A DNA stretch of 64,000 nt from positions 1-64,000 of IMG/VR virus record IMGVR_UViG_3300045988_137643, one strand, 5' to 3'. Numbering within the stretch: position 1 is the first letter of the stretch; each line of letters opens with the position of its first letter. This document shows positions 1-52,785 of this stretch, piece after piece. The position numbers and the translations under genes are program-made. The stretch comes from a virus. Its lineage: Duplodnaviria > Heunggongvirae > Uroviricota > Caudoviricetes. The notes under the pieces are model-generated. The model was given only the letters and a program-made list of their open reading frames with translations. It made no database searches and had not been told where the DNA came from.

Positions 1-20
1 CTAAACAACCATTCTTCACA

Positions 21-46
21 ATGCCCAGCGTATTGCTGGGCATTTT
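21..46 (+). terminator. rho-independent-type terminator hairpin
   Basis: GCCCAGC-GTATT-GCTGGGC stem-loop followed by TTTTC; duplicated at 891-916. Confidence 0.65.
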
Positions 47-83
47 CATATAGACGCAATCCCTTCTGATTTACTCAGCCCCT

Positions 84-98
84 AAAACAATTTGTTTT
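84..98. promoter_or_regulatory. 15-bp palindrome AAAACAA-T-TTGTTTT (operator family A)
   Basis: perfect inverted repeat; recurring upstream of early genes. Confidence 0.6.
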
Positions 99-140
99 CT
101 GCGTTCTATTATCAGTTAGAGTAACAGTATTAACAAAATA

Positions 141-848
141 ATGGAGCAAATTATGTCGATTGTTGATAAAGCTCATATGTTTGCCGTTGGAGTGTATGGT
201 GGTGTAGGTAAGAAGCGTAGATATACGGGGGAAGACTACGTTACACACCCAGTTTCTGTGCGTGAGATTGTTGCTTGGCACGGAGGCACTGTCGAAATGC
301 AGGCTGCTGCATTATTACATGGTGTTATTGAAGATACCCATATCACTATCGAAATGGTACGCGAGTATTTCGGGAATCGTATAGCTGAGATGGTACTGGC
401 GCTGGCAAACGTTGCCAAACCAGACGACGGCGATAGTCTTGCGAGATTCATTATTAATGTTCGCGAATTGCAAAAGACGTTGGATATGCAGACGCGAATG
501 ATTAAATTGGCCGACCTGTTGGACAATCTTACTGCTATTAAGCTGTGTGCACCTGGTTCCTCACCTATCTATTTTGCTGAAACAGAGCTTATGCTGGAAA
601 TGGTCTTTAACGGCAGGGCAATTGGCCCCGATGCTGGTGTTGTAGAATATTTAGAGAGTAAAGGCATTGAGCACGAATTATTAGTAAACGTACGAGCGGT
701 AGTGAATAAAGGCATATCTGACTTGAAGCCAGAGTACCGAACGCAATATGAATCCTATAAGGAGATGATTTGGCACAAATGGCGTCAATCAGAATATCAA
801 CATAGCGCGAACGTAACCTCCCATCCTGCAGCCGGATGCCGGTGCTAA
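141..848 (+). CDS. HD-domain protein with RelA/SpoT (p)ppGpp-hydrolase-like motifs; the canonical HD dyad reads HG
   Basis: ORF track; motifs HPVSVREIV and AALLHGVIEDT...FG..IAEMVLALANV resemble SpoT/Mesh1 hydrolase motifs; GGAG RBS precedes an alternative ATG at 153. Confidence 0.55.
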   Translation: MEQIMSIVDKAHMFAVGVYGGVGKKRRYTGEDYVTHPVSVREIVAWHGGTVEMQAAALLHGVIEDTHITIEMVREYFGNRIAEMVLALANVAKPDDGDSLARFIINVRELQKTLDMQTRMIKLADLLDNLTAIKLCAPGSSPIYFAETELMLEMVFNGRAIGPDAGVVEYLESKGIEHELLVNVRAVVNKGISDLKPEYRTQYESYKEMIWHKWRQSEYQHSANVTSHPAAGCRC

Positions 849-890
849 ACCTGGCCACCAGGTTAAGTAATTAAACAACCTCTCTTCGCA

Positions 891-916
891 ATGCCCGGCA
901 ACACGCCGGGCATTTT
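891..916 (+). terminator. rho-independent-type terminator after 141..848
   Basis: GCCCGGC-AACAC-GCCGGGC then TTTTC; compensatory base-pair change relative to copy at 21-46. Confidence 0.7.
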
Positions 917-953
917 CATATAGACACAATCCCTTCTGATTTACACAGTACCT

Positions 954-968
954 AAAACAATTTGTTTT
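954..968. promoter_or_regulatory. family A palindrome AAAACAA-T-TTGTTTT
   Basis: identical to 84-98; followed by GATAAT -10-like hexamer. Confidence 0.6.
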
Positions 969-1004
969 CTGCCTTTTGTTGTTAGAGATAATAAGCCACA
1001 TAAG

Positions 1005-1019
1005 AAAACAACTTGTTTT
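1005..1019. promoter_or_regulatory. family A palindrome AAAACAA-C-TTGTTTT
   Basis: second copy between -10-like hexamer and RBS of 1032..1331. Confidence 0.6.
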
Positions 1020-1031
1020 GGAGTGGTTGAA

Positions 1032-1331
1032 ATGTTGAACATTACCCAAGCCTACCAGGTGGCATTGATCAGTTCATCTCATACATCAGAGGAAGATGCT
1101 CGCCGATTCATGATCGCAAGCAATGAGCTGGATTGGGTTTCACAAATTGATGGCGGTTGTATTGTCCACGCCGGGTTACAGGATGATGTCTGGAAAGACG
1201 ACTTGCGTCGATATGGTATATCCGAAGGCGCGATTGCTAACATTCAGAAAGTACTTGATGTAGGCTTTGACTCTGTACATTTTGATTGTGGTGCGCCGGT
1301 CGTTGAAGGGCTTGAGTGCTGGAACTGGTAA
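1032..1331 (+). CDS. hypothetical early protein
   Basis: ORF track, start moved to ATG 1032 (GGAG upstream); preceded by the terminator-operator-promoter cassette. Confidence 0.45.
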   Translation: MLNITQAYQVALISSSHTSEEDARRFMIASNELDWVSQIDGGCIVHAGLQDDVWKDDLRRYGISEGAIANIQKVLDVGFDSVHFDCGAPVVEGLECWNW

Positions 1332-1738
1332 ATCTGCAAACATATTCAAACCGTTGATAATGGCGGTCACAATTTGATTCTTTTCTATAAGAATCCGTTG
1401 ATCGCCACTACTCCCCTTCCATGCCTGCAATCACATCCTTAAATATCAATAGGTTACAGTTGTTTATACCAATAAGAAAACAACTAAATAACAGATCAAC
1501 GAAACATCAACGCTTTCTCCCGATTTGGTCTAAAAAATTGACGTTTTCACACATCACTTCTTATACCCGTAATCCTACGCAGCAGACAGCTCCACAGCGT
1601 CCAATTTTCACCACAGACGACTCAACACACTACCAACAAAAACACACGCTCAAAATCGCTCCCGTTGCGTTACACAACCATATAAACAACTTATTTTCAG
1701 GCATAACAAAACAACTAAATAACACACATGCCATTCCC

Positions 1739-1802
1739 AAAAACAACCAACCTCTTTATGGCAGGCTACCGAAAAGACCCACCTCTTCTTCCCAGGCTAC
1801 CG
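1739..1802 (+). repeat. A+C-rich repeat element copy 1
   Basis: AAAAACAACCAACCTCT...CAGGCTACCG...ACCCACCTCTT...GGCTACCG; related copy at 4830-4881. Confidence 0.55.
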
Positions 1803-2408
1803 GATAACCAACCTAACTTTCACAGGCAATCCGAAAACATTCACACGCGCGATACCCACGACACGCCATTCCCCAAACAGCGAAGAAACACCAGAATCAC
1901 TGAAACCCCAACGAAGCCTGTAACCGCAAGGTTTCTCTCAATCCCAAAAGACACGAAACAGAACAATCACGGGAAACGCCATTACCCAATACACGAATAA
2001 CTACAAAAGCCTTTCACACTCCAGACAAACAACTCAAACACAATAACGAAAGGAATCGCCCACCTGCCATTACTCCATATACGGAGAAGAACAATCACCA
2101 AAACGACGAGAACACCCCATAGAAGAACCACCGCAAAACGAACGAAACCACATACACCGACAGAGAAAACAACACACCCAATTCACCAACAGAAATAGTC
2201 GCCGTATAGAACATTCTGGAAGGAGTGAGCATTAACGCCTATAGAGAGGTTGAGACAGATAAAACACGAAGAAAACACAACATGTATAGCGAAGAAGCCA
2301 GGTATGTATAAGTGGAGAGGGAAGGAGGGGTGTCGCCTCCTTTTTCGTATTTATTCAACTCCTGATTTTATCCCCCGTAACACCCCTACGGTCAGCCTTC
2401 GGTCCATA

Positions 2409-2549
2409 CAGGGAAAAGGCTGCATCCCGCTACAGAAACGGCTGGGTTGCCTTCGGGGAACGGCTGGAGGTTTTCAGGGAAACGGTCGAGTTGCCTGTGT
2501 GAATTTCGGGAAAAGGTTCGATGCCGGTTCAGGAACGGCGGCGTACCGG
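2409..2549. repeat. iteron-like array of about six degenerate 21-31-bp tandem units with core GGGAAA(A/C)GG
   Basis: units begin CAGGGAAAAGGCTG, GAAACGGCTGG, GGAACGGCTGG, GGGAAACGGTCG, GGGAAAAGGTTCG, GGAACGGCGG. Confidence 0.6.
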
Positions 2550-2902
2550 TATAGCGTGAGGGAGAGTTGCGACTGCCCACCTGTAATGTGCGGGAAGAAG
2601 AGAGGCGCTCACGTGCAGGCGAACTTACTTCCCGCTGGATTCCCTCTGAATGCCCAGCTACAGCGTAATTGTGCCAGACAGCCAGCGGGTCACAATCGAT
2701 TTCAGTAGGTTTTCGGGGAGAGGATTATTCTGCCCACCAGCCATCTTCGGCCACTAAATCAGAATAATGTAAAAAGTGTACTCGGTACTGAACCTGAAAA
2801 CTCACTGCCAAAACCACATTCACCGGAATAAAATCCTTTTTCGCCTATACGTTATTACGATAATAACACCAATAAGAAAACATGTTGTTTAAGGATTGCT
2901 TT

Positions 2903-3232
2903 ATGTTTGCACATATCGACATCAACCAAATTAAGAAATTGACTCAAAAAGAGTTTGACCAGTTCTGTGAGCTGGAAGGTTGGTCTTCCACTCTGATCAA
3001 TTCGCGGTGGGTGCTTGAGCTGATGACTCGTGATGACGCTCCTGCTTTGATGATTTGCGACATGGGTGAAGATGCTGACTTTATGGATATGAGCGAATTT
3101 TGTGTGGACACATACAACCGCAGCCAGAAGTACTACTTCACATGCGATAGCGAGAATGACGTGATTTCTAAGGTCTATCTTCACCTTGTCCAGCATTGGG
3201 ACGTTCAGGAGTTTCTTGAAGTATTCGCGTAA
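2903..3232 (+). CDS. hypothetical acidic early protein
   Basis: ORF track; ATG 2903 follows AAGGA RBS at 2891-2895; the track start at 2882 lies inside a palindromic element; D/E-rich product. Confidence 0.45.
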   Translation: MFAHIDINQIKKLTQKEFDQFCELEGWSSTLINSRWVLELMTRDDAPALMICDMGEDADFMDMSEFCVDTYNRSQKYYFTCDSENDVISKVYLHLVQHWDVQEFLEVFA

Positions 3233-3385
3233 CCTCAACCAAAGCCAGCAATGCTGGCTTAACTTCTCTGTGGCCGCAGGGAAGAACCCGCATATCGCTC
3301 ATGCGCCTGATCAATATGCTTTGTAGCCGTTTTCTTACTGGTATTATTTACGCCATTGAGAAAATAAGTTGTTTACGGAGTTGTG

Positions 3386-3697
3386 ATGAAAAAATCATTG
3401 GTTCTTGGTCTGGACAAAGACCAGAAGCGAAAAGAGAAGCCTGCGCTGGTTGCTCAATTAACTTTGCTGGACATCGTTGCCAATGGAACCTCTATTCGTC
3501 TGTTCCGTGAAACAGCGGTGTCTTTCGATAAAAACACCTTTACTCGTTATGTAATGAATGTTCGTCGCCAGCGTGGAAAAGGCTGGGTGGCATTTCAAAG
3601 AATGTGGCCGGAACATCAGCTCGAACTGGCTTTGATGGAAGTTAACCGCGTGGCCCAACAAGAAATTCAGAGAGCATCAGTGATGGCAATAGCCTGA
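3386..3697 (+). CDS. hypothetical protein
   Basis: ORF track; ATG 3386 after ACGGAG RBS; followed by terminator 3732-3759. Confidence 0.5.
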   Translation: MKKSLVLGLDKDQKRKEKPALVAQLTLLDIVANGTSIRLFRETAVSFDKNTFTRYVMNVRRQRGKGWVAFQRMWPEHQLELALMEVNRVAQQEIQRASVMAIA

Positions 3698-3731
3698 TAA
3701 TGTGCAAGTGGTAATTAGTCGACAGTACGAC

Positions 3732-3759
3732 AGCCCCGCCATCCTTACGGGGCTTTTTT
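3732..3759 (+). terminator. rho-independent-type terminator
   Basis: AGCCCCG...CGGGGCT stem followed by TTTTTT. Confidence 0.7.
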
Positions 3760-3764
3760 GTATT

Positions 3765-3780
3765 GTAAGTACATACTTAC
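3765..3780. promoter_or_regulatory. family B palindrome GTAAGTA-CA-TACTTAC
   Basis: 7-bp arms; immediately after terminator, upstream of 3824..4219. Confidence 0.55.
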
Positions 3781-3823
3781 GGTTATAAAATAGAAAAATA
3801 ACCAAGACACTACGGAGAGTGAA

Positions 3824-4219
3824 ATGACCGTTAAACGCGAAAAACTGACAGTTGATGTTTACTATGCCTCTGAAACTGCCGAAGGTAAGAATGTGGCAAA
3901 AATCACCGTTGTTACGTACAACACCGAAACTGGTGCCGAAGTACAGGCCAGTACGATCGTGCGTAAAGGTGATGCCTCCGGCGGCGAGTACGCGACTCAA
4001 TACCAGTCCATTCTCGATGCAACTGACCCGCTGCTGCTGAAAATCGAGAACTACTTCCGCCAGGTTGATGAAGAGGTGTTTGAAACCATGATGAGTATGG
4101 TTAATTCCGTATTCACCTCCAGCCTGAACACCAGCACCACCTGGATTGGCCAGTACGGTCTGCGTATTACCTCCGGCATTCCTGCTGACACCTTAATCCC
4201 TGAAAGCGTATTCGCTTAA
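3824..4219 (+). CDS. hypothetical protein
   Basis: ORF track; GGAGAG RBS; followed by terminator 4230-4256. Confidence 0.55.
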   Translation: MTVKREKLTVDVYYASETAEGKNVAKITVVTYNTETGAEVQASTIVRKGDASGGEYATQYQSILDATDPLLLKIENYFRQVDEEVFETMMSMVNSVFTSSLNTSTTWIGQYGLRITSGIPADTLIPESVFA

Positions 4220-4229
4220 TCCTCTTTAA

Positions 4230-4256
4230 ATGGCGCGTAAACCGCGCCATTTTCTT
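4230..4256 (+). terminator. rho-independent-type terminator
   Basis: TGGCGCG-TAAAC-CGCGCCA followed by TTTTCTT. Confidence 0.7.
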
Positions 4257-4263
4257 ATGCCCG

Positions 4264-4278
4264 ATAACAATTTGTTTT
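4264..4278. promoter_or_regulatory. family A palindrome (ATAACAA-T-TTGTTTT)
   Basis: one mismatch to consensus; same cassette context as 84-98 and 954-968. Confidence 0.55.
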
Positions 4279-4346
4279 CTGCCTTTATCTTACTGCGATA
4301 ATTACAACAACAAGAAAACAACGTGTTTATTAGGTGGTGAAATAAT

Positions 4347-4499
4347 ATGGAATACATTGTTACTGTCGCTTCGTCAGATCGGGAGTCGTTACTTGAGGCT
4401 ATCAGAAGCATGGAAAACATCATCATGTCAGAGCAGGAGCTTAATGGTTATCTTGAGATGGATGATTTTTCTATCAAAATGGAGGTGAAGAATGACTGA
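4347..4499 (+). CDS. small hypothetical protein (50 aa)
   Basis: ATG 4347 after AGGTGGTG RBS; not in ORF track (below size cut-off); 3' end overlaps the next start. Confidence 0.35.
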   Translation: MEYIVTVASSDRESLLEAIRSMENIIMSEQELNGYLEMDDFSIKMEVKND

Positions 4500-4773
4500 C
4501 TTCACCATTACCCCTAAAGCACAAAATGTATTTCTTGAATCATGGCTGGACTTGCCGGAAACAGAACAGCAAGAAATGGATCATGTGGATTATGACGAGC
4601 AGGTAAGCACGCGATTCTTCCACTTTGAGGGATGCGTTTACGACATTGCCGACTTCATGCGAGATGACCGCTTCCCTGAATGGCACGCAAGCTATCCACT
4701 AAACGCCTTTGCCATGCTGATGATCCGTGTGGATGATTCAGGGGATACCATCGACATCGGTCTGCTCCACTGA
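4492..4773 (+). CDS. hypothetical protein
   Basis: ORF track; overlaps upstream small ORF, suggesting translational coupling. Confidence 0.5.
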   Translation: MTDFTITPKAQNVFLESWLDLPETEQQEMDHVDYDEQVSTRFFHFEGCVYDIADFMRDDRFPEWHASYPLNAFAMLMIRVDDSGDTIDIGLLH

Positions 4774-4829
4774 ATAATAAGGTCACCAATGCTGGTGGCC
4801 TTAAATGACCATCCTGTTCCCCGCAGGCT

Positions 4830-4881
4830 AAAAACACCAACCTCTTACCTCCAGGCAACCGACAAACCCACCTGTTCCCGT
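4830..4881 (+). repeat. A+C-rich repeat element copy 2
   Basis: AAAAACACCAACCTCT...CAGGCAACCG...ACCCACCTGTT...GGCTACCG. Confidence 0.55.
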
Positions 4882-4943
4882 CCGGCTACCGCAACTTTCC
4901 ACTTTGACGCCTTATTCGTACAACGATAATTAACGCCAACAAG

Positions 4944-4958
4944 AAAACAATTTGTTAT
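4944..4958. promoter_or_regulatory. family A palindrome AAAACAA-T-TTGTTAT
   Basis: between GATAAT hexamer and RBS of 4978..5460. Confidence 0.55.
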
Positions 4959-4977
4959 TTACGATAAGGAATTAATC

Positions 4978-5460
4978 ATGAATTTTATCGCTACTGTAAA
5001 CGCACCCGCACATGGCAATATCGCTGTAACGTTCTCTGACATTGAAAAACGAGTACTTGGTGCATGGCGCGACAATGAGACGGTAGAACTGTCAGCACAA
5101 GAAAAATGCATTATTGCACGCGACATCATTGGCAATCGTCGTTACTCGCGGGTATTTGAGAAAGCGTATGTGGTAAATTCTGGATTCGGAACGTTCGTCT
5201 TTCCGGTGCGCTCCGGGCGATTCTGCCAGTCCAAGCTGATTGAGTTCGCTACGCAGATTTCGGTCTGGATTAAAACTCAATCGTCGTTCAAATTTTCCGA
5301 CGATGAAGCAGTATCGCAGGGGATGCGGATCGCCAACAATGCAATTAAATGCAAAAACATTACGTATACCGCTGGCGTTGATACATGGAAACTGTTTTGC
5401 GCTAACTTTATGTTGAATGTATACGCAAGCAACCGCATCCACATCCTTGATGGCGTGTAA
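4978..5460 (+). CDS. hypothetical protein
   Basis: ORF track; AAGGA RBS; operator palindrome 4944-4958 upstream; terminator 5468-5492 downstream. Confidence 0.55.
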   Translation: MNFIATVNAPAHGNIAVTFSDIEKRVLGAWRDNETVELSAQEKCIIARDIIGNRRYSRVFEKAYVVNSGFGTFVFPVRSGRFCQSKLIEFATQISVWIKTQSSFKFSDDEAVSQGMRIANNAIKCKNITYTAGVDTWKLFCANFMLNVYASNRIHILDGV

Positions 5461-5467
5461 CTGAGAA

Positions 5468-5492
5468 GAGGGCCAGAAACGGCCCTTTCTCT
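5468..5492 (+). terminator. terminator-like hairpin after 4978..5460
   Basis: GGGCC-AGAAAC-GGCCC followed by TTTCTC. Confidence 0.5.
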
Positions 5493-5507
5493 ATAGCCAC
5501 CAGCTGC

Positions 5508-5597
5508 CGCAGGGAAATTTTCAGAAACGGCGAGGAACGCATTCATGAGCCGACGGGAAACGGCCAGGATTTTTTCGGGAAACGGCTGCATTCGCCT
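5508..5597. repeat. second array of GGGAAACGG-type repeats
   Basis: CAGGGAAATTTTCAGAAACGGCG, CGGGAAACGGCCAGG, CGGGAAACGGCTGCAT; shares GGGAAA-GGCTGCAT with first array. Confidence 0.55.
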
Positions 5598-5997
5598 TTA
5601 TGTAGAAAAAACATCGGGAAGCTGGTGGAATCCAACCAGCGGTTGTCGGACAGGTGAGCGGGGAAAATTATGATGACTTTCGTCGCCTGAGACATCCAGA
5701 TTTCTTTCGTAGCATAATCACATACGTGATTAAGTGGTGTGATTATGTGAAAAATCACGCGCACATAATACGCGAGCGGATACGGAACAAAACGAAATGC
5801 CGATCCGCGCCGACAAATAAACGCGGATCATAAAGCAAGACTAAAAGCCAATGATTAACCATACTCTATAACGCAATATAACGCGTTTTAAGCGCGTTAA
5901 TGTGTTAAGTAATGGGTATGTACTGGTAAGGATATAAAAGCGCGTCTATGGCGTTATTTTGGTGCTTATTTTTATGTTGTTGGAGTGAGTTAAAGAC

Positions 5998-6026
5998 AAT
6001 AAAAAACGCGCCAATGATGGCGCGTT
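5998..6026 (-). terminator. minus-strand rho-independent-type terminator
   Basis: AACGCGCCA-ATGA-TGGCGCGTT; A-run on + strand gives U-run after the hairpin on minus strand. Confidence 0.6.
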
Positions 6027-7822: not shown

Positions 7823-8347
7823 TCAAAAAGGCAAAATTCGCTCAACCCAATCGAACAAAACAACTATTTTTCTACCGTTCTCGACACGTAGTGTAACCTG
7901 ACAAGCATCTGCGCCTGCTGACACCCCCTCAATTTCACGGCCATCCGCCATGTACACCCTTATAGATTTGTTTGCTTTGTAGGCTTGGTTGCAAATTGCA
8001 AAAAAATCGCGGCGTGATGGCCGATTATCGACATAATCAGGGTGAACTGTTAGTCGACCTTTGAAATCGTGAGCGATACTGTCAACCACACCTGATTCAA
8101 TTGTACTAATGCGTTCAAGTGGGAGCCTTATGCGATTTTCTTTATCAAAAGGGGCTGGGCAAAGGTCAACTTTGTTACGAGATGGCATGAGGCCATAAAC
8201 GTACATGCAAAACGCCTGACCATCTTCGAGAGTGGCCCTTACAGGAATTTGTTCTCTGCGCCAGAACATCAGTAGTTTTTCAACGTTAGTGTAATCTCGA
8301 GGCCAGACTTCTGCTGGCACACCGTAGGTGATGTCTTTCGTCGTCAT
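7823..8347 (-). CDS. hypothetical protein
   Basis: ORF track 7823..8386 shortened to Met 14 (8347) to remove overlap with the upstream lipoprotein gene. Confidence 0.5.
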   Translation of the reverse strand: MTTKDITYGVPAEVWPRDYTNVEKLLMFWRREQIPVRATLEDGQAFCMYVYGLMPSRNKVDLCPAPFDKENRIRLPLERISTIESGVVDSIAHDFKGRLTVHPDYVDNRPSRRDFFAICNQAYKANKSIRVYMADGREIEGVSAGADACQVTLRVENGRKIVVLFDWVERILPF

Positions 8348-8351
8348 ATCA

Positions 8352-8771
8352 TTATAAAGTGGTTGGCAATATATCCATTGTACCATCCCAGGTAGTGAAA
8401 ACCCGATATGTTTTCGCGTCGCCTTGCTTTAGTTTTATTTCTCGCTCCATCCTGGAGGGGTTAAATGCGCAAAGACCTGAACTTTCAATTGATGTCCCAA
8501 CGATCCAATCTCCTTCATTAAGATAGAAAGTTGCTTTTTCACCAGGTTCCAATTTTGCTGCCGTTTCTCCATTGATGAATATAGAAGCGTTACATCCAGA
8601 ACCAACCAGCCCTTTGTCTCTAACTATTGTTAGACTAGACTCATGTGGTGTTTGATATTTAAATGTTCTGCTTTGAGGTGCATACTTTGCCTTTGAAACA
8701 GATATAGATGAAGATGAACACCCAATTAGTGATGTGGCTAGTGTTAGAATAATTAGGTTTGTTGCTTTCAT
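8352..8771 (-). CDS. lipoprotein
   Basis: signal peptide with lipobox LIGC (MKATNLIILTLATSLIGC). Confidence 0.6.
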   Translation of the reverse strand: MKATNLIILTLATSLIGCSSSSISVSKAKYAPQSRTFKYQTPHESSLTIVRDKGLVGSGCNASIFINGETAAKLEPGEKATFYLNEGDWIVGTSIESSGLCAFNPSRMEREIKLKQGDAKTYRVFTTWDGTMDILPTTL

Positions 8772-9595: not shown

Positions 9596-9874
9596 TTATG
9601 GCAGTTTGCTTAGAATTTGTTCTAGGTCTTCCTTTGTCATATTAGAGTTTTCATAGATGCGCATGATTTTCTCACGAGCCTTAGCAGAGACTCCAACGGC
9701 AGAGGAAACTTTATCAAACTCAGCCATCGTCATCGCCTCTAGGATGGTATTGATAACTTCAGCCTTAGACATTTTGATGTTTTTTTCTTTTAGTTTCATT
9801 TGAAACTTTCCAAGTTTGTCATTGGCCTTATCAGACAATGCCACCTGACAATAAGTTGTTTTCTTTTCGCTCAT
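9596..9874 (-). CDS. small hypothetical protein, possibly DNA-binding
   Basis: ORF track, 92 aa, Lys-rich; immediately downstream of the helicase gene on the same strand. Confidence 0.45.
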   Translation of the reverse strand: MSEKKTTYCQVALSDKANDKLGKFQMKLKEKNIKMSKAEVINTILEAMTMAEFDKVSSAVGVSAKAREKIMRIYENSNMTKEDLEQILSKLP

Positions 9875-14425: not shown

Positions 14426-14692
14426 ATGACGTTAACCGATAAACAAAAGGACATCATCAAAACGCTCAATCTCGGTTATGAGCGAGGTCATCTACTTGAT
14501 CTGGACGAATTGCTTGAAGTTTTGCCGTACAAGACAACAAAGCAAAGTATCCAGTTCTCAATTCGCGCTCTGATAAAAAAGGGGCTGGTGGAGAAAGGGC
14601 ATACGCGCCAACGCAGTGACAATCGCTATCACCGCAGGACTCTTGGGTTAACCACTTTAGGTCGAGCCAAAGCGAAGTTACTGGTGATGTAA
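14426..14692 (+). CDS. small basic protein, possible winged-helix DNA binder
   Basis: ORF track, 88 aa; AAGGA RBS; followed by large palindrome 14717-14771. Confidence 0.45.
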   Translation: MTLTDKQKDIIKTLNLGYERGHLLDLDELLEVLPYKTTKQSIQFSIRALIKKGLVEKGHTRQRSDNRYHRRTLGLTTLGRAKAKLLVM

Positions 14693-14716: not shown

Positions 14717-14771
14717 CCTGCTTCTGTATATATAAATAATAAGTAACTTATTAAATATATACGGAAGCAGG
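14717..14771. repeat. large (~55 bp) palindromic hairpin element with 17-bp perfect core TAATAAGTAACTTATTA; copy 1
   Basis: outer stem CCTGCTTCTGTATATAT/ATATATACGGAAGCAGG around the core; near-identical copy at 46136-46190. Confidence 0.75.
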
Positions 14772-14834
14772 CTTAGTAAGACATGCCAGACCTAATTAAA
14801 CACCCCAGAAAACAAGTTGGTTAGCAGATGCAGT

Positions 14835-14847
14835 AAACAAGTTGTTT
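14835..14847. promoter_or_regulatory. family A palindrome AAACAA-G-TTGTTT upstream of terS
   Basis: perfect 6+1+6 inverted repeat; weaker copy at 14808-14822. Confidence 0.55.
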
Positions 14848-14887
14848 TAGAGCGCATGGACGCGCTCTGTGTGTTTTAGAGGGATCT

Positions 14888-15520
14888 ATGACGGTCGAAA
14901 AAGACGAGGTAAAAACTCGCCTGACACCAGCGGAGTGGGCCGAAGCTGAAGCCAAATGGACGTCAGGCGAATATACACTCTCAAAGCTGGAGGAAGAGTA
15001 CGGCATTCGTCGTGAAACACTCTCCAGACATTTCAAAAAGCGAGGATTAGAGAAAGGCGCGGACTCTGTTGGGAAGATGGTTCGTGAGTCTCTTAAATCT
15101 GACGCAGAGCTTCGCGCTAAAGCCCGTGCGGAAAAGATAGAAGAACGTCGTACACGTTATGACGGCTGGGCGTATGCGTTGGGGCAGATGGTGATGGTCG
15201 AAGTCACTACGGCCAAACGTGATGGTAAGCCTTTAGGGGCGATTGAGGATTCTCTCAAGAGCTTACAGAGAGCCAGTAATACCCTTGCAAAATGCTTTGA
15301 AGTTTCGTCCAAAGCATTGGGCATGGATCATGCGGAAAATGACGAGGAAGAAATTCCGAACCTGGTATTTGGTGAGCTTACGCCTTCCCAGGTGGCGAAA
15401 TTACGTCAGGAAGACGACGAGCCTGAAATCATCGATGACGAATTGCTTGAGACGTTGGAAGAAGAAGCTCTAAGCGAATTTGATGCGACAGATGATGGAA
15501 GTGAAGGGGAGGACGAATAA
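14888..15520 (+). CDS. terS: terminase small subunit (putative)
   Basis: position immediately upstream of the large terminase with ATGA-type overlap; HTH-like N-terminus and highly acidic C-terminus. Confidence 0.6.
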   Translation: MTVEKDEVKTRLTPAEWAEAEAKWTSGEYTLSKLEEEYGIRRETLSRHFKKRGLEKGADSVGKMVRESLKSDAELRAKARAEKIEERRTRYDGWAYALGQMVMVEVTTAKRDGKPLGAIEDSLKSLQRASNTLAKCFEVSSKALGMDHAENDEEEIPNLVFGELTPSQVAKLRQEDDEPEIIDDELLETLEEEALSEFDATDDGSEGEDE

Positions 15521-44928: not shown

Positions 44929-44950
44929 ACCCGCTACGGCGGGTTTTTTT
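44928..44950 (+). terminator. rho-independent-type terminator
   Basis: AACCCGC-TACG-GCGGGTT followed by TTTTTTT. Confidence 0.8.
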
Positions 44951-45029
44951 GTTATTAAGCCCCCCTATGTACCTATCATTAAACCTTTACACCGCAGCCG
45001 TAGGCATTTAGGCTATATCACATATAAGA

Positions 45030-45042
45030 AAACAAGTTGTTT
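45030..45042. promoter_or_regulatory. family A palindrome AAACAA-G-TTGTTT upstream of parA
   Basis: followed by GATAAT hexamer and AAGGGA RBS. Confidence 0.6.
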
Positions 45043-45077
45043 CAGACGATAATTATATACGCAAAGGGAACTCTCCA

Positions 45078-45746
45078 ATGACCAAGATCTTTGTGGTTGG
45101 CGGCACAAAGGGCGGGCCTGGCAAATCCACCGTTGCCCAGCAAATTGCCGTTTGCCTGAAAGTCAAAAAGAAGAAGAAGGTTTATATCACCGATATAGAT
45201 ATTCAGCGCACGACAACGAGCTGGTGTGAAGACCGTCGACAGAACGAAGACCTTGAGCTGATTCCTTTTGCATACGTTCAGGATGACATCATTAAGCACC
45301 TAAAATCGCTTCAGGGTAGAGCTGAGTATGTAGTGGTAGATGCTGGTGGCTTCGACTCCGAAATTCAGCGACAAGCGATGCTGATGGCTGACGTTATCAT
45401 TATCCCGCTGCGTCCTAAGCGTCGTGATTTGAAATCTTTACGTGACATCGATCCTATTATCGACAATGTTCGCAATGTAAACGATAAAGTGAAGGTCCGC
45501 GCGGTCATGAACCAGTGCCCGGCTTTGCCATCACAAGTGTCTCGCATTCTGGCGGCTAAAGAGATTGTCGAGACGTTTGGCATCGAGTCTGCGCCTGTCA
45601 ATCTATATAACCGCAACGTCTACGATGATGCGGAAGAGTCTGGTCGTTCTATCTTTGAAATGACCGGTAGCGAGCGCGACAAAAAGGCGGAAGCCGAGTT
45701 TGAAGAATTTGTAGATTATCTGTTGAGTCTGGAGGAAGAAGAATAA
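45078..45746 (+). CDS. parA: ParA/MinD-family partition ATPase
   Basis: deviant Walker A GGTKGGPGKST; 222 aa without N-terminal HTH (type Ib-like); operator palindrome upstream. Confidence 0.85.
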   Translation: MTKIFVVGGTKGGPGKSTVAQQIAVCLKVKKKKKVYITDIDIQRTTTSWCEDRRQNEDLELIPFAYVQDDIIKHLKSLQGRAEYVVVDAGGFDSEIQRQAMLMADVIIIPLRPKRRDLKSLRDIDPIIDNVRNVNDKVKVRAVMNQCPALPSQVSRILAAKEIVETFGIESAPVNLYNRNVYDDAEESGRSIFEMTGSERDKKAEAEFEEFVDYLLSLEEEE

Positions 45747-46105
45747 TGTCCATGAAAATGGGTGACCTAGCAAAGCGCAAAGAGCCTGATGCACCGGCTA
45801 AGAACACAACTCCTTTGCGCCAACCAGTCAGACCACAGGGACGCCCGACTCGTGGCAAAGAGAAAATTAAAAGCCGCACAATGTCACTGGAAGACGAATA
45901 CTTCGAACTGCTGGAGATGATGAAGTTCATCCCTCGCTTCGAGAAATTCACCCGCTCTGATGTGATTCGTGCTGCTATTTTCCATCTTGCGGAGAAGACA
46001 CCGCAGGAAATCGAGGACATCGTGAAACTTAACGAGGCGATCACAGCTGCCGATGTAACGATGCGTACCGATGAAATCAAGCGAGAACTCATGAAAAAAG
46101 GCTGA
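45746..46105 (+). CDS. ribbon-helix-helix partition partner (ParG-like)
   Basis: ATGA-coupled to parA; C-terminal RHH-like segment; large palindrome 46136-46190 downstream. Confidence 0.6.
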   Translation: MSMKMGDLAKRKEPDAPAKNTTPLRQPVRPQGRPTRGKEKIKSRTMSLEDEYFELLEMMKFIPRFEKFTRSDVIRAAIFHLAEKTPQEIEDIVKLNEAITAADVTMRTDEIKRELMKKG

Positions 46106-46135: not shown

Positions 46136-46190
46136 CCTGTTTCTGTATTTAAATAATAAGTAACTTATTAAATATATATACGGAAGCAGG
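46136..46190. repeat. large palindromic hairpin element, copy 2, immediately downstream of partition operon
   Basis: same 17-bp core at 46154-46170 with flanking stem CCTGTTTCTGTA.../...TACGGAAGCAGG. Confidence 0.75.
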
Positions 46191-46307
46191 TCTTTTAAAA
46201 GACACCCACCAGAACAACTCCCTTCCGTTTTCACTTCCAAAAACTGACACCAGTCGCTATCATCCGCTCATTGTGATAAGTAAGTAACTACCTACCAGGT
46301 GAGCCAC

Positions 46308-47048: not shown

Positions 47049-47059
47049 CTAATACTAGA

Positions 47060-47072
47060 AAACAATTTGTTT
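47060..47072. promoter_or_regulatory. family A palindrome AAACAA-T-TTGTTT upstream of helicase gene
   Basis: perfect inverted repeat 20 nt before ATG 47092. Confidence 0.6.
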
Positions 47073-47091
47073 AAAAAACAAAGGAAAGCAC

Positions 47092-48432
47092 ATGACCGAA
47101 CTTTGCCATACAGGACGCGGGCTGTCCGAAGAGTTTGATGAAGATTTCCAGAACAGATTGACGGCATATTTTTGTCGTGATCACGAGTTTCTTACTCGTG
47201 CGGGAGATCTGGTTGTACCTAGCCAATTTGCCAATGCGGCCAATGCCATATTGGTTAATATGGTTTCGGGCTATTACCGTATGTACAAGAGCGCGCCCTC
47301 TTCATCTGCAATTCTGGATATGCTTAAGCGTGCGAAACGCGATAAGACTATCCGTGAGGAACTATTCGCCGATGTTGTTGCTGCGTTTAAGCGCATCCTT
47401 GCAGAAAAATTGTCCGATACCTCGTACATGGTTGACCAGGTATCAACCTTCGCAAAAAGCGTAGCGTTTGATGATGCTCTGATTAAGGCTGCTGAACTGA
47501 AAGAGAAGGGCGACTTTCAGGGGGCGATGGCAATCATGGCCAAGGTTCAGCAGATTGGATCGAACGAAGCGACCGGAATCTATGACTACTACACCTCCGC
47601 AAGTGAGCGATTGAAAGCGCGTGAATATGAGGCTTCAGAGGAGTATGTACCAAACAGTATTACAACTGGACTCCCTCTTCTCGATAGGTTGCTGTACCAA
47701 AAAGGCTGGGCAAAGCGCGAAATGGTGCTCTTCATGGGGTTCGCTAAATCCGGTAAATCGACCGCAATGGGTGAGTTTTCCATAAACGCAACGCTTGCTG
47801 GCTACAATGTACTGTATCTCTCGCTGGAGGTTCACACCAACATTTTGTCCGACCGTTTTGATGCAAGATTGTCGGAGACGGAAATGTCCAAGCTGGTGGA
47901 ACGGCGCGATGAAGTTCATCGTAAGTTGGCAGAGTTGGGAGCCACTAAGGGGATTGGTAGTTTGTGGGTTGTTGAGCGTCCGTCAGGAAGTATGTCACCG
48001 GCAGATCTGGACCGTATGCTTAACAGTATGAAAGCCAATGGCATGGTGCCTGACATGCTTGTTGTCGACTACGCAGATTTGATGCGTGCCAGTTATGACC
48101 TTCGTGATGATCGCGCCAACATTCGTAGTATCTACACCGATTTACGTGCTCTTTATGACAAACATAACGTTGCTGGAATCACGGCATCGCAGACAAACCG
48201 TGAAGGTGGCGCGTCAGAAGTTGCCACAATGATGCACGCCGCCGACAACATCGAAAAAGTACGTATTGCTGACCTGGTAATAACGATCAACAAAACCGAA
48301 GAAGAAGAAGCGAAAGGAGAGGCTCGTCTCTACTTTGCTGGTTCACGTAACCAGCAGGGAGGGATCAGCATTCGTGTTAAACAAAACCTCGAACAAATGC
48401 GCTTCATTGAGCGGATCTTAGACGTTACCTAA
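47092..48432 (+). CDS. DnaB-like replicative helicase
   Basis: Walker A GFAKSGKST, Walker B MLVVDYADLM, RecA-like C-terminal domain. Confidence 0.8.
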   Translation: MTELCHTGRGLSEEFDEDFQNRLTAYFCRDHEFLTRAGDLVVPSQFANAANAILVNMVSGYYRMYKSAPSSSAILDMLKRAKRDKTIREELFADVVAAFKRILAEKLSDTSYMVDQVSTFAKSVAFDDALIKAAELKEKGDFQGAMAIMAKVQQIGSNEATGIYDYYTSASERLKAREYEASEEYVPNSITTGLPLLDRLLYQKGWAKREMVLFMGFAKSGKSTAMGEFSINATLAGYNVLYLSLEVHTNILSDRFDARLSETEMSKLVERRDEVHRKLAELGATKGIGSLWVVERPSGSMSPADLDRMLNSMKANGMVPDMLVVDYADLMRASYDLRDDRANIRSIYTDLRALYDKHNVAGITASQTNREGGASEVATMMHAADNIEKVRIADLVITINKTEEEEAKGEARLYFAGSRNQQGGISIRVKQNLEQMRFIERILDVT

Positions 48433-52410: not shown

Positions 52411-52586
52411 TGCTCGGCTGGATGATTGCATTTTTAGCGGTTGGTTTTTTAATCGGTATTGTTGTGATGTCCAGTTGCATCAATGACTACATTAAAAGCG
52501 GTGTTATAGAAAGACGCGGTCGTATTTATCGCATTGTTGAAATAACCAACACCGTGAAGGAGATTAAGGATGATCGTATTAAGTAA
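52407..52586 (+). CDS. small membrane protein (59 aa)
   Basis: ATG overlapping ligase stop; N-terminal TM helix; paralogous to 52783..52934. Confidence 0.35.
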   Translation: MMLGWMIAFLAVGFLIGIVVMSSCINDYIKSGVIERRGRIYRIVEITNTVKEIKDDRIK

Positions 52587-52785
52587 ACGGGAGAAGGAAA
52601 CGCTTCATGAAATCAGTAAGTGGCCGGAGTTCCCTGAGTACTGGAAGCCTAAAACGCGAGCTAAGTTAGAGCGTTTAGGGTTGGTTGCAAACGTTTCTGA
52701 AACGAAGTGTTCGGCCAACTACCAGTTAACTGATAAAGGGAAAGTATTGCTACAGCAATTAGTAGAATCAGGAGTGTTAAAATGA
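52570..52785 (+). CDS. hypothetical small protein
   Basis: ORF track. Confidence 0.4.
   Translation: MIVLSKREKETLHEISKWPEFPEYWKPKTRAKLERLGLVANVSETKCSANYQLTDKGKVLLQQLVESGVLK

What the first reader, a model, noticed from the sequence alone, without database searches (positions are those of the whole stretch)
1..5000. Early region built from repeated terminator-operator-promoter cassettes with AAACAA-N-TTGTTT palindromes
Three near-identical intergenic cassettes (1-106, 871-973, 4228-4330) each contain a terminator hairpin (copies at 21-46 and 891-916 differ by a compensatory A-T to G-C pair, arguing for selection on structure), a 15-bp palindrome AAAACAA-T-TTGTTTT, a GATAAT or TATTAT -10-like hexamer, and often a second palindrome just before the RBS (1005-1019, 4315-4328, 4944-4958). 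The same palindrome precedes terS (14835-14847), parA (45030-45042) and the replicative helicase gene (47060-47072). This is a second regulon, distinct from the TAAGTA family, linking early, partition and replication genes; its binding factor is not identifiable from sequence.
Basis: seen in the sequence. Interest (0 to 1): 0.55.

Follow-up and report, generated by a model that had tools for sequence, protein, structure and literature searches.

The report
Conserved operator palindrome regulon, SSU5-type phage-plasmid
A 15-base palindrome (AAAACAA-N-TTGTTTT) sits at a fixed position on about twenty promoters of a widespread family of phage-plasmids and is strictly conserved while its surroundings drift, so it is almost certainly the docking site of a still unidentified regulator that keeps early, replication, partition and packaging genes under common control.

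Summary
The window is an SSU5-type phage-plasmid of E. coli, 97% identical to phage Cyrano/pLF82. AAAACAANTTGTTTT (at least 12 of 14 bases) occurs 16 times against 0.65 expected. It occurs 15-21 times in Cyrano, SSU5 and Klebsiella pJN2-26, at orthologous positions. In 30 variants of the helicase upstream region the 14 specified bases are nearly invariant (0.03 bit), the central base is free (1.46 bit) and the flanks drift (0.5-0.8 bit).

Sites come in two positions. A 'D' site starts 10-13 bp after an extended -10 hexamer, about +5 to +19 and just before the ribosome-binding site. A 'U' site lies exactly 51 bp upstream, over the -35 region and behind the previous gene's terminator.

Published RNA-seq of a Cyrano lysogen shows the downstream genes at background, except parA. 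The best reading is a DNA operator for a two-fold symmetric repressor. The binder remains unidentified. I excluded or weakened several candidates: the CYRAN_45-type HTH repressor, an 88-aa winged-helix protein and a 92-aa RHH protein. A ParG-like protein and an FljA-like protein with a tandem Hfq fold stay open.

This is a new member of a known kind (dispersed operator regulon, as with P1 C1 or RK2 Kor). I found no description of it in the searched literature.

The parts
20..48 (+). Intrinsic terminator of the gene upstream of the window start (10-bp stem, loop 5, UUUU tail), cassette 1
   Evidence: -17.6 kcal/mol, z -4.4.
84..98 (.). U-type palindrome AAAACAATTTGTTTT (14/14), cassette 1, in front of the HD-domain gene (141-848)
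890..918 (+). Intrinsic terminator after the HD-domain gene, cassette 2. It differs from copy 1 by a compensatory A-U to G-C pair.
   Evidence: -19.1 kcal/mol, z -6.0. Sequence.
954..968 (.). U-type palindrome (14/14), centre about -38 relative to the inferred start site, overlapping the -35 region of cassette 2
   Evidence: The centre lies 51 bp from the D site.
987..992 (+). -10 hexamer GATAAT of cassette 2 (TGA-GATAAT in Cyrano)
1005..1019 (.). D-type palindrome AAAACAACTTGTTTT (14/14), 12 nt after the -10 and 12 nt before ATG 1032 (DUF5983 protein)
1683..1697 (.). Palindrome TAAACAACTTATTTT (12/14) inside the A+C-rich ORF-poor region. It is conserved with its left flank (GCTCCCGTTGCGTTA) in Cyrano and SSU5, and in diverged form in pJN2-26.
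   Evidence: Cyrano 94604, SSU5 90739, pJN2-26 25868.
2859..2891 (+). Promoter cassette 4: GATAAT (2859-2864) plus D site AAAACATGTTGTTTA (2877-2891), before ATG 2903
   Evidence: D1, D3.
3339..3375 (+). Promoter cassette 5: extended -10 TGG-TATTAT (3339-3347) plus D site AAAATAAGTTGTTTA (3361-3375), before ATG 3386
   Evidence: The site is 13/14 in Cyrano, SSU5 and pJN2-26.
4228..4256 (+). Intrinsic terminator after gene 3824-4219, cassette 3
   Evidence: -15.2 kcal/mol, z -4.9.
4264..4278 (.). U-type palindrome ATAACAATTTGTTTT (13/14), cassette 3
4294..4329 (+). Extended -10 TGC-GATAAT (4294-4302) plus D site AAAACAACGTGTTTA (4315-4329), before ATG 4347. The U-D centre distance is 51 bp.
4925..4958 (+). 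Promoter cassette 6: GATAAT (4925-4930) plus D site AAAACAATTTGTTAT (4944-4958), before ATG 4978
14809..14848 (.). Two palindromes 25 bp apart (14809-14823, 12/14; 14834-14848, 13/14) in the terS leader, followed by hairpin 14849-14869 and the RBS. terS ATG is at 14888.
   Evidence: The same pair occurs in Cyrano, SSU5 and pMT1.
45029..45043 (.). D-type palindrome AAAACAAGTTGTTTC (13/14), 34 nt before parA. It is kept in lineages where the ParG-like protein is only 48-64% identical.
47059..47073 (.). D-type palindrome AAAACAATTTGTTTA (13/14), 18 nt before the DnaB-type helicase gene. This is the site used for the conservation footprint.
58701..58738 (+). Extended -10 TGC-TACATT plus palindrome TAAATAATTTGTTTT (58724-58738, 12/14), before the cobT-like gene (ATG 58757). 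The same geometry occurs in SSU5 and pJN2-26, and the site is perfect (14/14) in pMT1.
45746..46105 (+). Candidate binder 1: ParG-like small protein behind parA. An RHH fold is inferred from the sequence pattern only.
   Evidence: The AF2 model is poor.
7823..8386 (-). Candidate binder 2 (RNA-level rival): FljA-family protein with a predicted tandem Sm/Hfq fold
   Evidence: PF03614, E 4e-84.

Best explanation
The palindrome AAAACAA-N-TTGTTTT (core AAACAA-N-TTGTTT) is a double-stranded DNA operator. It is recognised by a two-fold symmetric regulator and is shared by about 20 transcription units of SSU5-type phage-plasmids of Enterobacteriaceae.

**Promoter layout.** The strong early promoters are extended -10 promoters (TGnGATAAT or TGGTATTAT) without a usable -35.
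- One operator copy (D) begins 10-13 bp after the -10 hexamer, at about +5 to +19.
- At the strongest cassettes a second, inverted copy (U) lies exactly 51 bp upstream, about five helical turns away, over the -35 region.

**Proposed mechanism.** A protein bound at D blocks open-complex formation or promoter escape. U plus D allow cooperative binding or a loop across the core promoter. This keeps these genes off in the plasmid-prophage state:
- the accessory early genes;
- the helicase, cobT-like and nrdB genes;
- the terS leader.

Each cassette is insulated from the previous gene by an intrinsic terminator. parA, with a single slightly weaker site, is only throttled.

**What is shown.** The motif is over-represented, is conserved at orthologous positions with a free central base, has a fixed geometry relative to the -10, and sits in front of genes that are silent in a lysogen.

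**What is inferred.**
- The transcription start sites.
- That the site is bound as DNA.
- That binding represses.
- The identity of the protein, which is unresolved. It is most likely element-encoded, and the ParG-like protein is the best but weakened DNA-binding candidate.
For: **Enrichment.**
- 16 sites at 12 or more of 14 bases against 0.65 expected in the window; 19 in Cyrano.
- 21 in SSU5 and 15 in pJN2-26, against 0.5-0.7 expected.

**Purifying selection on the half-sites only.** In 30 distinct helicase-upstream variants the entropy is 0.03 bit in the 14 specified positions, 1.46 bit at the central base, and 0.79 and 0.50 bit in the flanks.

**Geometry.**
- 27 of 52 sites have a -10-like hexamer ending 7-15 nt upstream. 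The mode is 12 nt (13 sites), and 15 of the 27 carry TGn.
- The distance from a D-type site to the start codon ranges widely, from 10 to 39 nt.
- The cobT promoter is not homologous to the cassettes. It still keeps TGnTAnnTT, then 10-11 nt, then the site, in three genera.
- The U-D centre distance is 51 bp in every pair.
- U sites lie upstream of the -10 and behind terminators, so transcription from the cassette promoter does not include them.

**Symmetry and folding.** The two halves are exact reverse complements, and the sequence does not fold as RNA (-3.8 kcal/mol, z -0.5).

**Expression in a Cyrano lysogen** (PMC9928086 table S1; background 9.8).
- terS 7.1, CYRAN_47 7.8, 58 5.7, 70 12.9, 85 7.0, 87 7.1, 93 6.3, 101 7.5, 105 12.8, 106 12.2, 108 5.7, 110 6.7.
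- parA operon 50-89.

**Specificity to the family.** 103 of 120 IMG/VR loci holding the exact 18-mer are SSU5-like; the rest are low-GC chance hits.
Against: **No direct data.** There is no binding assay and no mapped transcription start site.

**No candidate passes every comparative test.**
- The 88-aa winged-helix protein keeps an invariant recognition helix in two lineages that lack the motif.
- The DNA-facing strand residues of the 92-aa RHH protein vary while the motif does not.
- The CYRAN_45-type repressor is missing from SSU5, and its own promoter carries a different palindrome.
- The ParG-like protein is absent from pMT1, which keeps seven sites.
- The ParG-like protein also keeps its putative DNA-reading strand in Pectobacterium Drgb1, where the palindrome is absent.

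**Other weaknesses.**
- D sites always lie in the 5' untranslated region next to the RBS, which an RNA-level mechanism would also explain.
- Silence in the lysogen would also follow from lack of an activator.
- The constant U-D spacing may partly reflect common descent of the cassettes.
Confidence: 0.6

Rival explanations
1. RNA-level control. The D element (AAG-AAAACAA-N-UUGUUUA) in the 5' untranslated region is the target of the element's FljA-family protein, which blocks translation or destabilises the mRNA, as FljA does on fliC. The A-rich and U-rich halves would bind the two faces of an Hfq-like ring.
For: **The protein.**
- Window 7823-8386 (-) matches PF03614 over its full length (E 4e-84).
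- It has no HTH.
- FljA proteins act on fliC after transcription (PMC2652032).

**The sites.**
- D sites are always in sense orientation and lie 10-39 nt before the start codon.
- The 40 nt before Salmonella fliC contain ACATCAAGTTGTAAT (10/14) just 5' of the RBS (primer in PMC3410353).

**Co-occurrence.**
- The gene is core: 831 PLSDB plasmids.
- It is present in every genome or locus checked that has the motif and covers the gene's position, down to 53% identity.
- Gene and motif are both absent from the two distant relatives, Pectobacterium Drgb1 and a Morganella element.
Against: - Thirteen U-type copies across the window, Cyrano, SSU5 and pJN2-26 lie upstream of the promoter and behind terminators.
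- Exact reverse-complement symmetry has no use for a single-strand binder. By my own rough estimate, not a tool result, A-rich/U-rich halves with one C and one G would show it by chance about 5% of the time.
- Spacing is tight relative to the -10 and loose relative to the start codon.
- The E. coli fliC leader, a known FljA target, has no match of 9/14 or better.
- There are no compensatory changes and no stable fold.
- The co-occurrence rests on the two most distant lineages, which also live in other host families, so it is confounded by phylogeny.
- The protein is only 35% identical to a bona fide FljA.
Confidence: 0.2
2. Host-factor site. The palindrome is bound by a transcription factor of Enterobacteriaceae, which the element uses to tie its promoters to host physiology.
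For: - The motif is present in elements from Escherichia, Salmonella, Klebsiella, Kluyvera, Buttiauxella and (recently acquired) Yersinia pestis pMT1.
- It is at chance level in the relatives from Pectobacterium (4 sites against about 4 expected) and Morganella.
- No element-encoded DNA-binding candidate passes every comparative test.
Against: - I know of no E. coli regulator with this consensus. This rests on my own recall, not on a database test.
- I could not scan a host chromosome for the motif.
- Dispersed, element-wide operator sets are normally served by an element-encoded protein.
- The two motif-negative lineages are also the most distant ones (UvsW 58-62% identical), so the pattern is confounded.
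Confidence: 0.1
3. Lytic-cycle shut-off or switch operator. The binder is an early or middle protein absent from the lysogen, for example the 71-aa winged-helix protein at 52570-52785. It turns early promoters off after infection or induction, and the lysogen is silent for another reason (the TAAGTA-type repressor acting upstream).
For: - The core DNA-binding proteins that are expressed in the lysogen fail comparative tests.
- The 71-aa protein is present in Cyrano, SSU5, pJN2-26 and the L212 lineage, and absent from motif-negative Drgb1.
- Sites in the terS leader would suit an early-to-late switch.
Against: - The cassette promoters carry no TAAGTA-type site, yet they are silent in the lysogen despite good extended -10 elements.
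- The 71-aa protein is missing from pMT1, which keeps the sites, and was not found in the 20-kb L215 locus.
- Its DNA binding rests on weak profile hits only.
Confidence: 0.08

Closest known systems
Dispersed C1 operators of phage-plasmid P1 (from general knowledge of P1 biology; not tested here)
   Same: - One short operator sequence is scattered over a ~100-kb phage-plasmid genome.
- It overlaps many separate promoters, including that of a DnaB-type helicase operon (ban in P1; the helicase gene at 47092 here).
- It holds lytic functions off in a plasmid prophage.
   Different: - P1 operators are asymmetric 17-mers bound by monomeric C1. Here the site is a 13-15 bp perfect palindrome.
- No C1 homologue was seen.
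- The HTH repressor next to the integrase seems to use a different (TAAG/CTTAC) palindrome.
KorA/KorB global regulon of IncP plasmid RK2, and omega of pSM19035 (from general knowledge)
   Same: - Palindromic sites of 12-13 bp are repeated on many promoters of one replicon.
- They tie partition, replication and other operons together.
- One site sits in the promoter of the partition operon, whose small second gene product is a possible binder.
   Different: - No ParB-CTPase-type or omega-type binding was shown.
- There is only a single site before parA, with no repeat array.
- The ParG-like candidate is weakened by pMT1 and Drgb1.
Dual-operator repression with promoter-flanking sites (lac O1/O3, gal OE/OI type looping)
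   Same: Two identical sites bracket the core promoter at a fixed distance close to an integral number of helical turns (51 bp). One of them lies just downstream of the start site.
   Different: Looping is inferred from spacing only, and the spacing could be inherited with the duplicated cassette.
FljA repression of the fliC leader in Salmonella
   Same: - An FljA-family protein is encoded by the element.
- The element lies in the 5' leader next to the RBS.
- The Salmonella fliC leader shares the core CAAGTTGT.
   Different: - Copies upstream of promoters, the two-fold symmetry and the absence of a match in the E. coli fliC leader all argue against it.
- The protein is only 35% identical to a true FljA.
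CUP repeat promoters of IncN plasmids (from general knowledge)
   Same: Repeated intergenic promoter-operator modules stand in front of small accessory genes of a mobile element.
   Different: The sequence, the size (CUP repeats are several hundred bp) and the regulators are all different.

Membership tests
Operator set of a global repressor regulon on a phage or plasmid | One specific sequence is strongly over-represented in the replicon | tested here: met
   - Window: 16 observed against 0.65 expected.
- Cyrano 19 against 0.65; SSU5 21 against 0.7; pJN2-26 15 against 0.5.
Operator set of a global repressor regulon on a phage or plasmid | Sites overlap core promoter elements or the start site | tested here: inconclusive
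   - By sequence, the D site starts 10-13 nt after a -10-like hexamer in 23 of the 27 sites that have one.
- The U site overlaps the -35 region.
- No start-site data are available.
Operator set of a global repressor regulon on a phage or plasmid | Sites are conserved at orthologous positions while flanks diverge | tested here: met
Operator set of a global repressor regulon on a phage or plasmid | A cognate DNA-binding protein binds the site | not testable with these tools
   Candidates were only ranked by presence/absence and by residue conservation.
Operator set of a global repressor regulon on a phage or plasmid | Target genes are repressed when the regulator is present | tested here: inconclusive
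   Published lysogen RNA-seq shows 12 of 13 site-linked units at about background. There is no mutant or induced comparison.
Intrinsic (Rho-independent) terminator | A G+C-rich hairpin directly followed by a U run | tested here: met
   Three hairpins with 10-bp stems, -15 to -19 kcal/mol, tail UUUUC.
Extended -10 sigma-70 promoter | TGn immediately upstream of a TAnnnT hexamer, with a dispensable -35 | tested here: met
   - 15 of 27 site-linked hexamers carry TGn.
- No -35 is detectable.
- Promoter activity was not tested.
FljA-type leader operator (post-transcriptional) | The target lies in the mRNA leader near the RBS, and an FljA-family protein is present | tested here: met
FljA-type leader operator (post-transcriptional) | All copies lie in transcribed leaders, and the sequence resembles known FljA targets | tested here: not met
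   - U copies lie upstream of promoters.
- The E. coli fliC leader has no match; the Salmonella fliC leader reaches only 10/14.
Centromere (parS/parH-type) of a type Ib partition system | An array of several repeats next to the par operon | tested here: not met
   There is a single palindrome before parA and no repeat array in 44930-45078.

The most novel reading that the evidence does not exclude
The palindrome regulon belongs to the FljA-family protein of the element, which has a tandem Hfq/Sm fold. In that case FljA, known only as the repressor of one flagellin gene, would be a domesticated offshoot of a phage-plasmid global regulator. That regulator would control about 20 genes through an A-rich/U-rich leader element, possibly acting on both DNA and RNA. 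The element is carried by more than 800 sequenced plasmids, including S. Typhi pHCM2 and Y. pestis pMT1.
Probability: 0.17. Interest if true: 0.75.

Novelty: new member of a known kind. Interest (0 to 1): 0.45.

Why it matters
**Why the family matters.** SSU5-type phage-plasmids are common in clinical Enterobacteriaceae.
- About 800 PLSDB plasmids carry the marker genes.
- Relatives include S. Typhi pHCM2-type plasmids, KPC-carrying Klebsiella elements and Y. pestis pMT1.
- In the library searched I found nothing on how their gene expression is organised.

**What the finding provides.**
- A defined 15-bp operator with about 20 mapped positions.
- A defined promoter architecture: extended -10, with sites at about -38 and about +13.

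**What it makes testable.**
- What silences the lytic genes in the plasmid state.
- How partition, replication and packaging are coupled.
- Which protein to delete or titrate to induce or cure these elements.

The motif also gives a simple sequence signature for annotating promoters and accessory-gene cassettes in this family.

Tried and rejected
1. **Chance or low complexity.** Rejected by shuffles. Motif hits outside SSU5-like contigs occur only in low-GC phages, at 1-3 per locus.
2. **RNA hairpin.** The D element does not fold. No compensatory changes appear among about 70 sites.
3. **CYRAN_45-type HTH repressor (57808-58194) as binder.**
   - Its promoter region carries GGTAAGTGCTTACC and no AAACAA site.
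   - SSU5 lacks the gene but keeps 21 sites.
4. **92-aa RHH protein (9596-9874) as binder.**
   - The apparent site at its 5' end (9848) is coding sequence and is not conserved in SSU5 or pJN2-26.
   - Its DNA-facing strand residues vary.
5. **88-aa winged-helix protein (14426-14692).** Its recognition helix is invariant in motif-negative Drgb1 and the Morganella element.
6. **Autoregulation of the FljA-like gene.** There is no site upstream of it in three genomes.
8. **Left half plus AAG flank as an independent promoter element in Drgb1.** Only 2 copies were found, which is about chance.
9. **Rfam on 1-6000.** No hit.
10. **Literature.** No paper in the library links SSU5-type elements to an operator or repressor motif. 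One 2026 preprint on an SSU5-type element could not be opened, but the text search shows it has no occurrence of 'repressor', 'operator' or 'palindrom'.
11. **Distant relatives via the helicase protein.** The IMG/VR search returned only homologues at least 92% identical. Distant lineages came from PLSDB and a UvsW profile instead.

Full report
**Identity of the window.** Bases 832-5200 are 97% identical to Escherichia phage Cyrano (pLF82). The full 5.2 kb is 95-99% identical to several ~110-kb E. coli plasmids. The window is therefore part of an SSU5-type phage-plasmid. Cyrano's annotation places the finding in a block of small genes of unknown function. That block lies between the MetRS/HD-domain gene and a leftward operon.

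**The observation.** Reading the sequence confirms every coordinate in the finding.
- Exact AACAANTTGTT occurs 8 times against 0.17 expected.
- AAACAANTTGTTT with up to 2 mismatches occurs 20 times against 6.3 expected.
- The 15-mer AAAACAANTTGTTTT at 12 or more of 14 bases occurs 16 times against 0.65 expected.
- The three hairpins (20-44, 890-914, 4228-4252) have 10-bp stems, fold at -15 to -19 kcal/mol (z -4.4 to -6.0) and carry U tails.
- Copies 1 and 2 differ by the stated A-U to G-C double change.

'Near-identical' is true only for cassettes 1 and 2. Cassette 3 shares only the segment from the upstream palindrome onward. Cassette 1 has no downstream palindrome. Three more promoter cassettes (2837-2891, 3321-3375, 4909-4958) carry only the downstream palindrome.

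**Anatomy.** I aligned all sites from the window, Cyrano, SSU5 and Klebsiella pJN2-26. Two site classes emerge.
- *D sites* read ...CCAAcAAG-AAAACAAnTTGTTTA. They begin 10-13 nt after a -10-like hexamer (mode 12 nt, 13 of 27 sites). They end 10-39 nt before a start codon with an RBS.
- *U sites* read (hairpin)...T/AAAACAAnTTGTTTT-CTgCC. This is the reverse complement of the D form. In every pair their centre lies exactly 51 bp upstream of the D centre.
- *The -10 elements* are GATAAT, TATTAT or GAAAAT. Fifteen of 27 are preceded by TGn. No -35 is detectable, and the consensus scan does not find these promoters.

Taking a start site 7 nt after the hexamer, D spans about +5 to +19 and U is centred near -38. 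The cobT-like promoter is not homologous to the cassettes. It still keeps TGnTAnnTT, then 10-11 nt, then the site, in three genera. The terS leader holds two sites 25 bp apart, followed by a hairpin.

**Conservation.**
- SSU5 has 21 sites and pJN2-26 has 15, against 0.5-0.7 expected. They lie before the orthologous genes: terS, parA, helicase, cobT, the TciA-like gene and the early cassettes; nrdB carries a site in SSU5 and Cyrano but none above threshold in pJN2-26.
- Eighty IMG/VR loci anchored on the helicase gene give 30 distinct upstream variants. Mean entropy is 0.03 bit in the 14 specified positions, 1.46 bit at the central base, and 0.79 and 0.50 bit in the flanks.
- The sites persist where the neighbouring ParA and ParG-like proteins are only 48-68% identical.
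- They persist in a diverged early region with different genes (L063).
- They persist in the degraded relative pMT1 of Y. pestis (7 sites, one perfect).
- Of 120 IMG/VR loci with the exact 18-mer, 103 are SSU5-like. The others are low-GC chance hits.
- Two distant syntenic relatives have the motif only at chance level. These are Pectobacterium plasmid Drgb1 (4 sites against about 4 expected) and a Morganella element.

**Expression.** Table S1 of PMC9928086 gives RNA-seq of the Cyrano lysogen (background 9.8).
- Genes directly behind a site are at background (5.7-12.9), with the helicase at 21 and CYRAN_111 at 25.5.
- The parA operon is the exception (50-89).
- The same paper shows that Cyrano is induced by ciprofloxacin.

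So promoters with good extended -10 elements are silent in the plasmid state. This fits repression but does not prove it.

**DNA or RNA?** Evidence for DNA:
- The halves are exact reverse complements.
- The U copies lie upstream of the promoter and behind terminators.
- Spacing is tight relative to the -10 and loose relative to the start codon.
- The sequence does not fold as RNA, and no compensatory changes are seen.

Evidence for RNA:
- D sites are always in the leader next to the RBS.
- The element encodes a core FljA-family protein (PF03614, E 4e-84; 831 PLSDB plasmids).
- Its model is a tandem Sm/Hfq fold.
- FljA acts on the fliC leader after transcription (PMC2652032).
- The Salmonella fliC leader has a 10/14 match next to its RBS, although the E. 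coli fliC leader has none.
- The FljA-like gene and the motif are present together in every genome or locus checked that has the motif and covers that gene's position. Both are absent from the two distant relatives. Those relatives are also the most distant lineages and live in other host families, so this is one confounded contrast.

I rate the DNA operator at 0.6 and the RNA reading at 0.2.

**Who binds?**
- *CYRAN_45-type HTH repressor (57808-58194):* excluded. Its own promoter region carries GGTAAGTGCTTACC, and SSU5 lacks the gene.
- *88-aa winged-helix protein (14426-14692):* unlikely. Its recognition helix is invariant in the motif-negative lineages.
- *92-aa RHH-like protein (9596-9874):* unlikely, although it is expressed in the lysogen. 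Its DNA-facing residues vary.
- *ParG-like protein (45746-46105):* open. In its favour, it sits in the only site-linked operon active in the lysogen, and a strand-helix segment is invariant down to 48% identity. Against it, pMT1 lacks it yet keeps the sites. Drgb1 also keeps the same strand residues without the palindrome. Its RHH fold is inferred from sequence only, because the model is poor.
- *71-aa winged-helix-like protein (52570-52785):* open.
- *A host factor:* open.

**Comparison with known systems.** The arrangement works like the dispersed C1 operators of P1 or the Kor regulon of RK2. One short operator is repeated over many promoters of a plasmid-borne element. Two promoter-flanking copies sit where tight repression is needed. 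It is not a member of those families by sequence or protein. Searches of the held literature found no description of regulatory sites in SSU5-type elements.

**Verdict.**
- The feature is real, conserved and functional-looking.
- Operator is the best reading.
- The binder is unidentified.
- It is a new member of a known kind, of moderate interest mainly because the element family is widespread and its regulation is uncharted.

Noticed in passing
window 1400-2350: - A ~900-nt ORF-poor stretch is strongly A+C-rich on the + strand (GC skew -0.4 to -0.5, AT skew up to +0.56).
- It starts after a half-element TAAGAAAACAACTAAATAACA (1472-1493, repeated at 1703-1724) and ends at a terminator-like hairpin (2319-2345).
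- Cyrano annotates a 'coiled-coil' ORF here (CYRAN_102). That ORF is broken in this window.
- The region is transcribed in the lysogen (57 against a background of 9.8), and there is no Rfam hit.
- It looks like a long non-coding RNA.
   Followed up: partly
window 1740-1806 and 4808-4895: 28-31-nt tandem repeats of the type ACCnACCTcTT..CAGGCTACCG occur at two separate places in the early region, both in ORF-poor DNA (families D4 and D5). Their function is unknown.
   Followed up: no
[not shown]
- This would explain the post-transcriptional action reported for FljA.
- It is a core gene of the clade (831 PLSDB plasmids) and is only 35% identical to a true FljA.
   Followed up: partly
window 14717-14775 and 46136-46192: Two copies of a ~56-bp near-perfect palindrome are centred on AATAAGTAACTTATT (-30.8 kcal/mol, z -9). 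One lies before the terS leader and one after the par operon. The centre belongs to the TAAGTA family.
   Followed up: partly
window 58195-58445: The divergent promoter region of the CYRAN_45-type HTH repressor carries a perfect palindrome GGTAAGTGCTTACC (58226-58239) and further TAAG/CTTAC elements. This suggests that this repressor serves the TAAGTA-type sites (21 in the window against 1.7 expected), although the half-site spacing differs.
   Followed up: partly
window 2400-2550 and 5549-5585: G-rich repeats of the type GGGAAAaGG..GGGAAACGG follow directly after the A+C-rich region, with one more copy near 5550 (D9 and D10).
   Followed up: no
L218 48354-48575 (Pectobacterium plasmid Drgb1): This distant relative lacks both the palindrome and the FljA-like gene. 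It encodes a true Hfq homologue directly in front of its helicase gene, the position where the SSU5 clade carries a D site.
   Followed up: no
L216+L217 (Y. pestis pMT1, NC_017169): pMT1 keeps seven AAACAA palindromes, including a perfect one before the cobT-like gene. It has lost the type Ib parA/ParG-like genes and the helicase region and carries a P1/P7-type parAB instead.
   Followed up: partly
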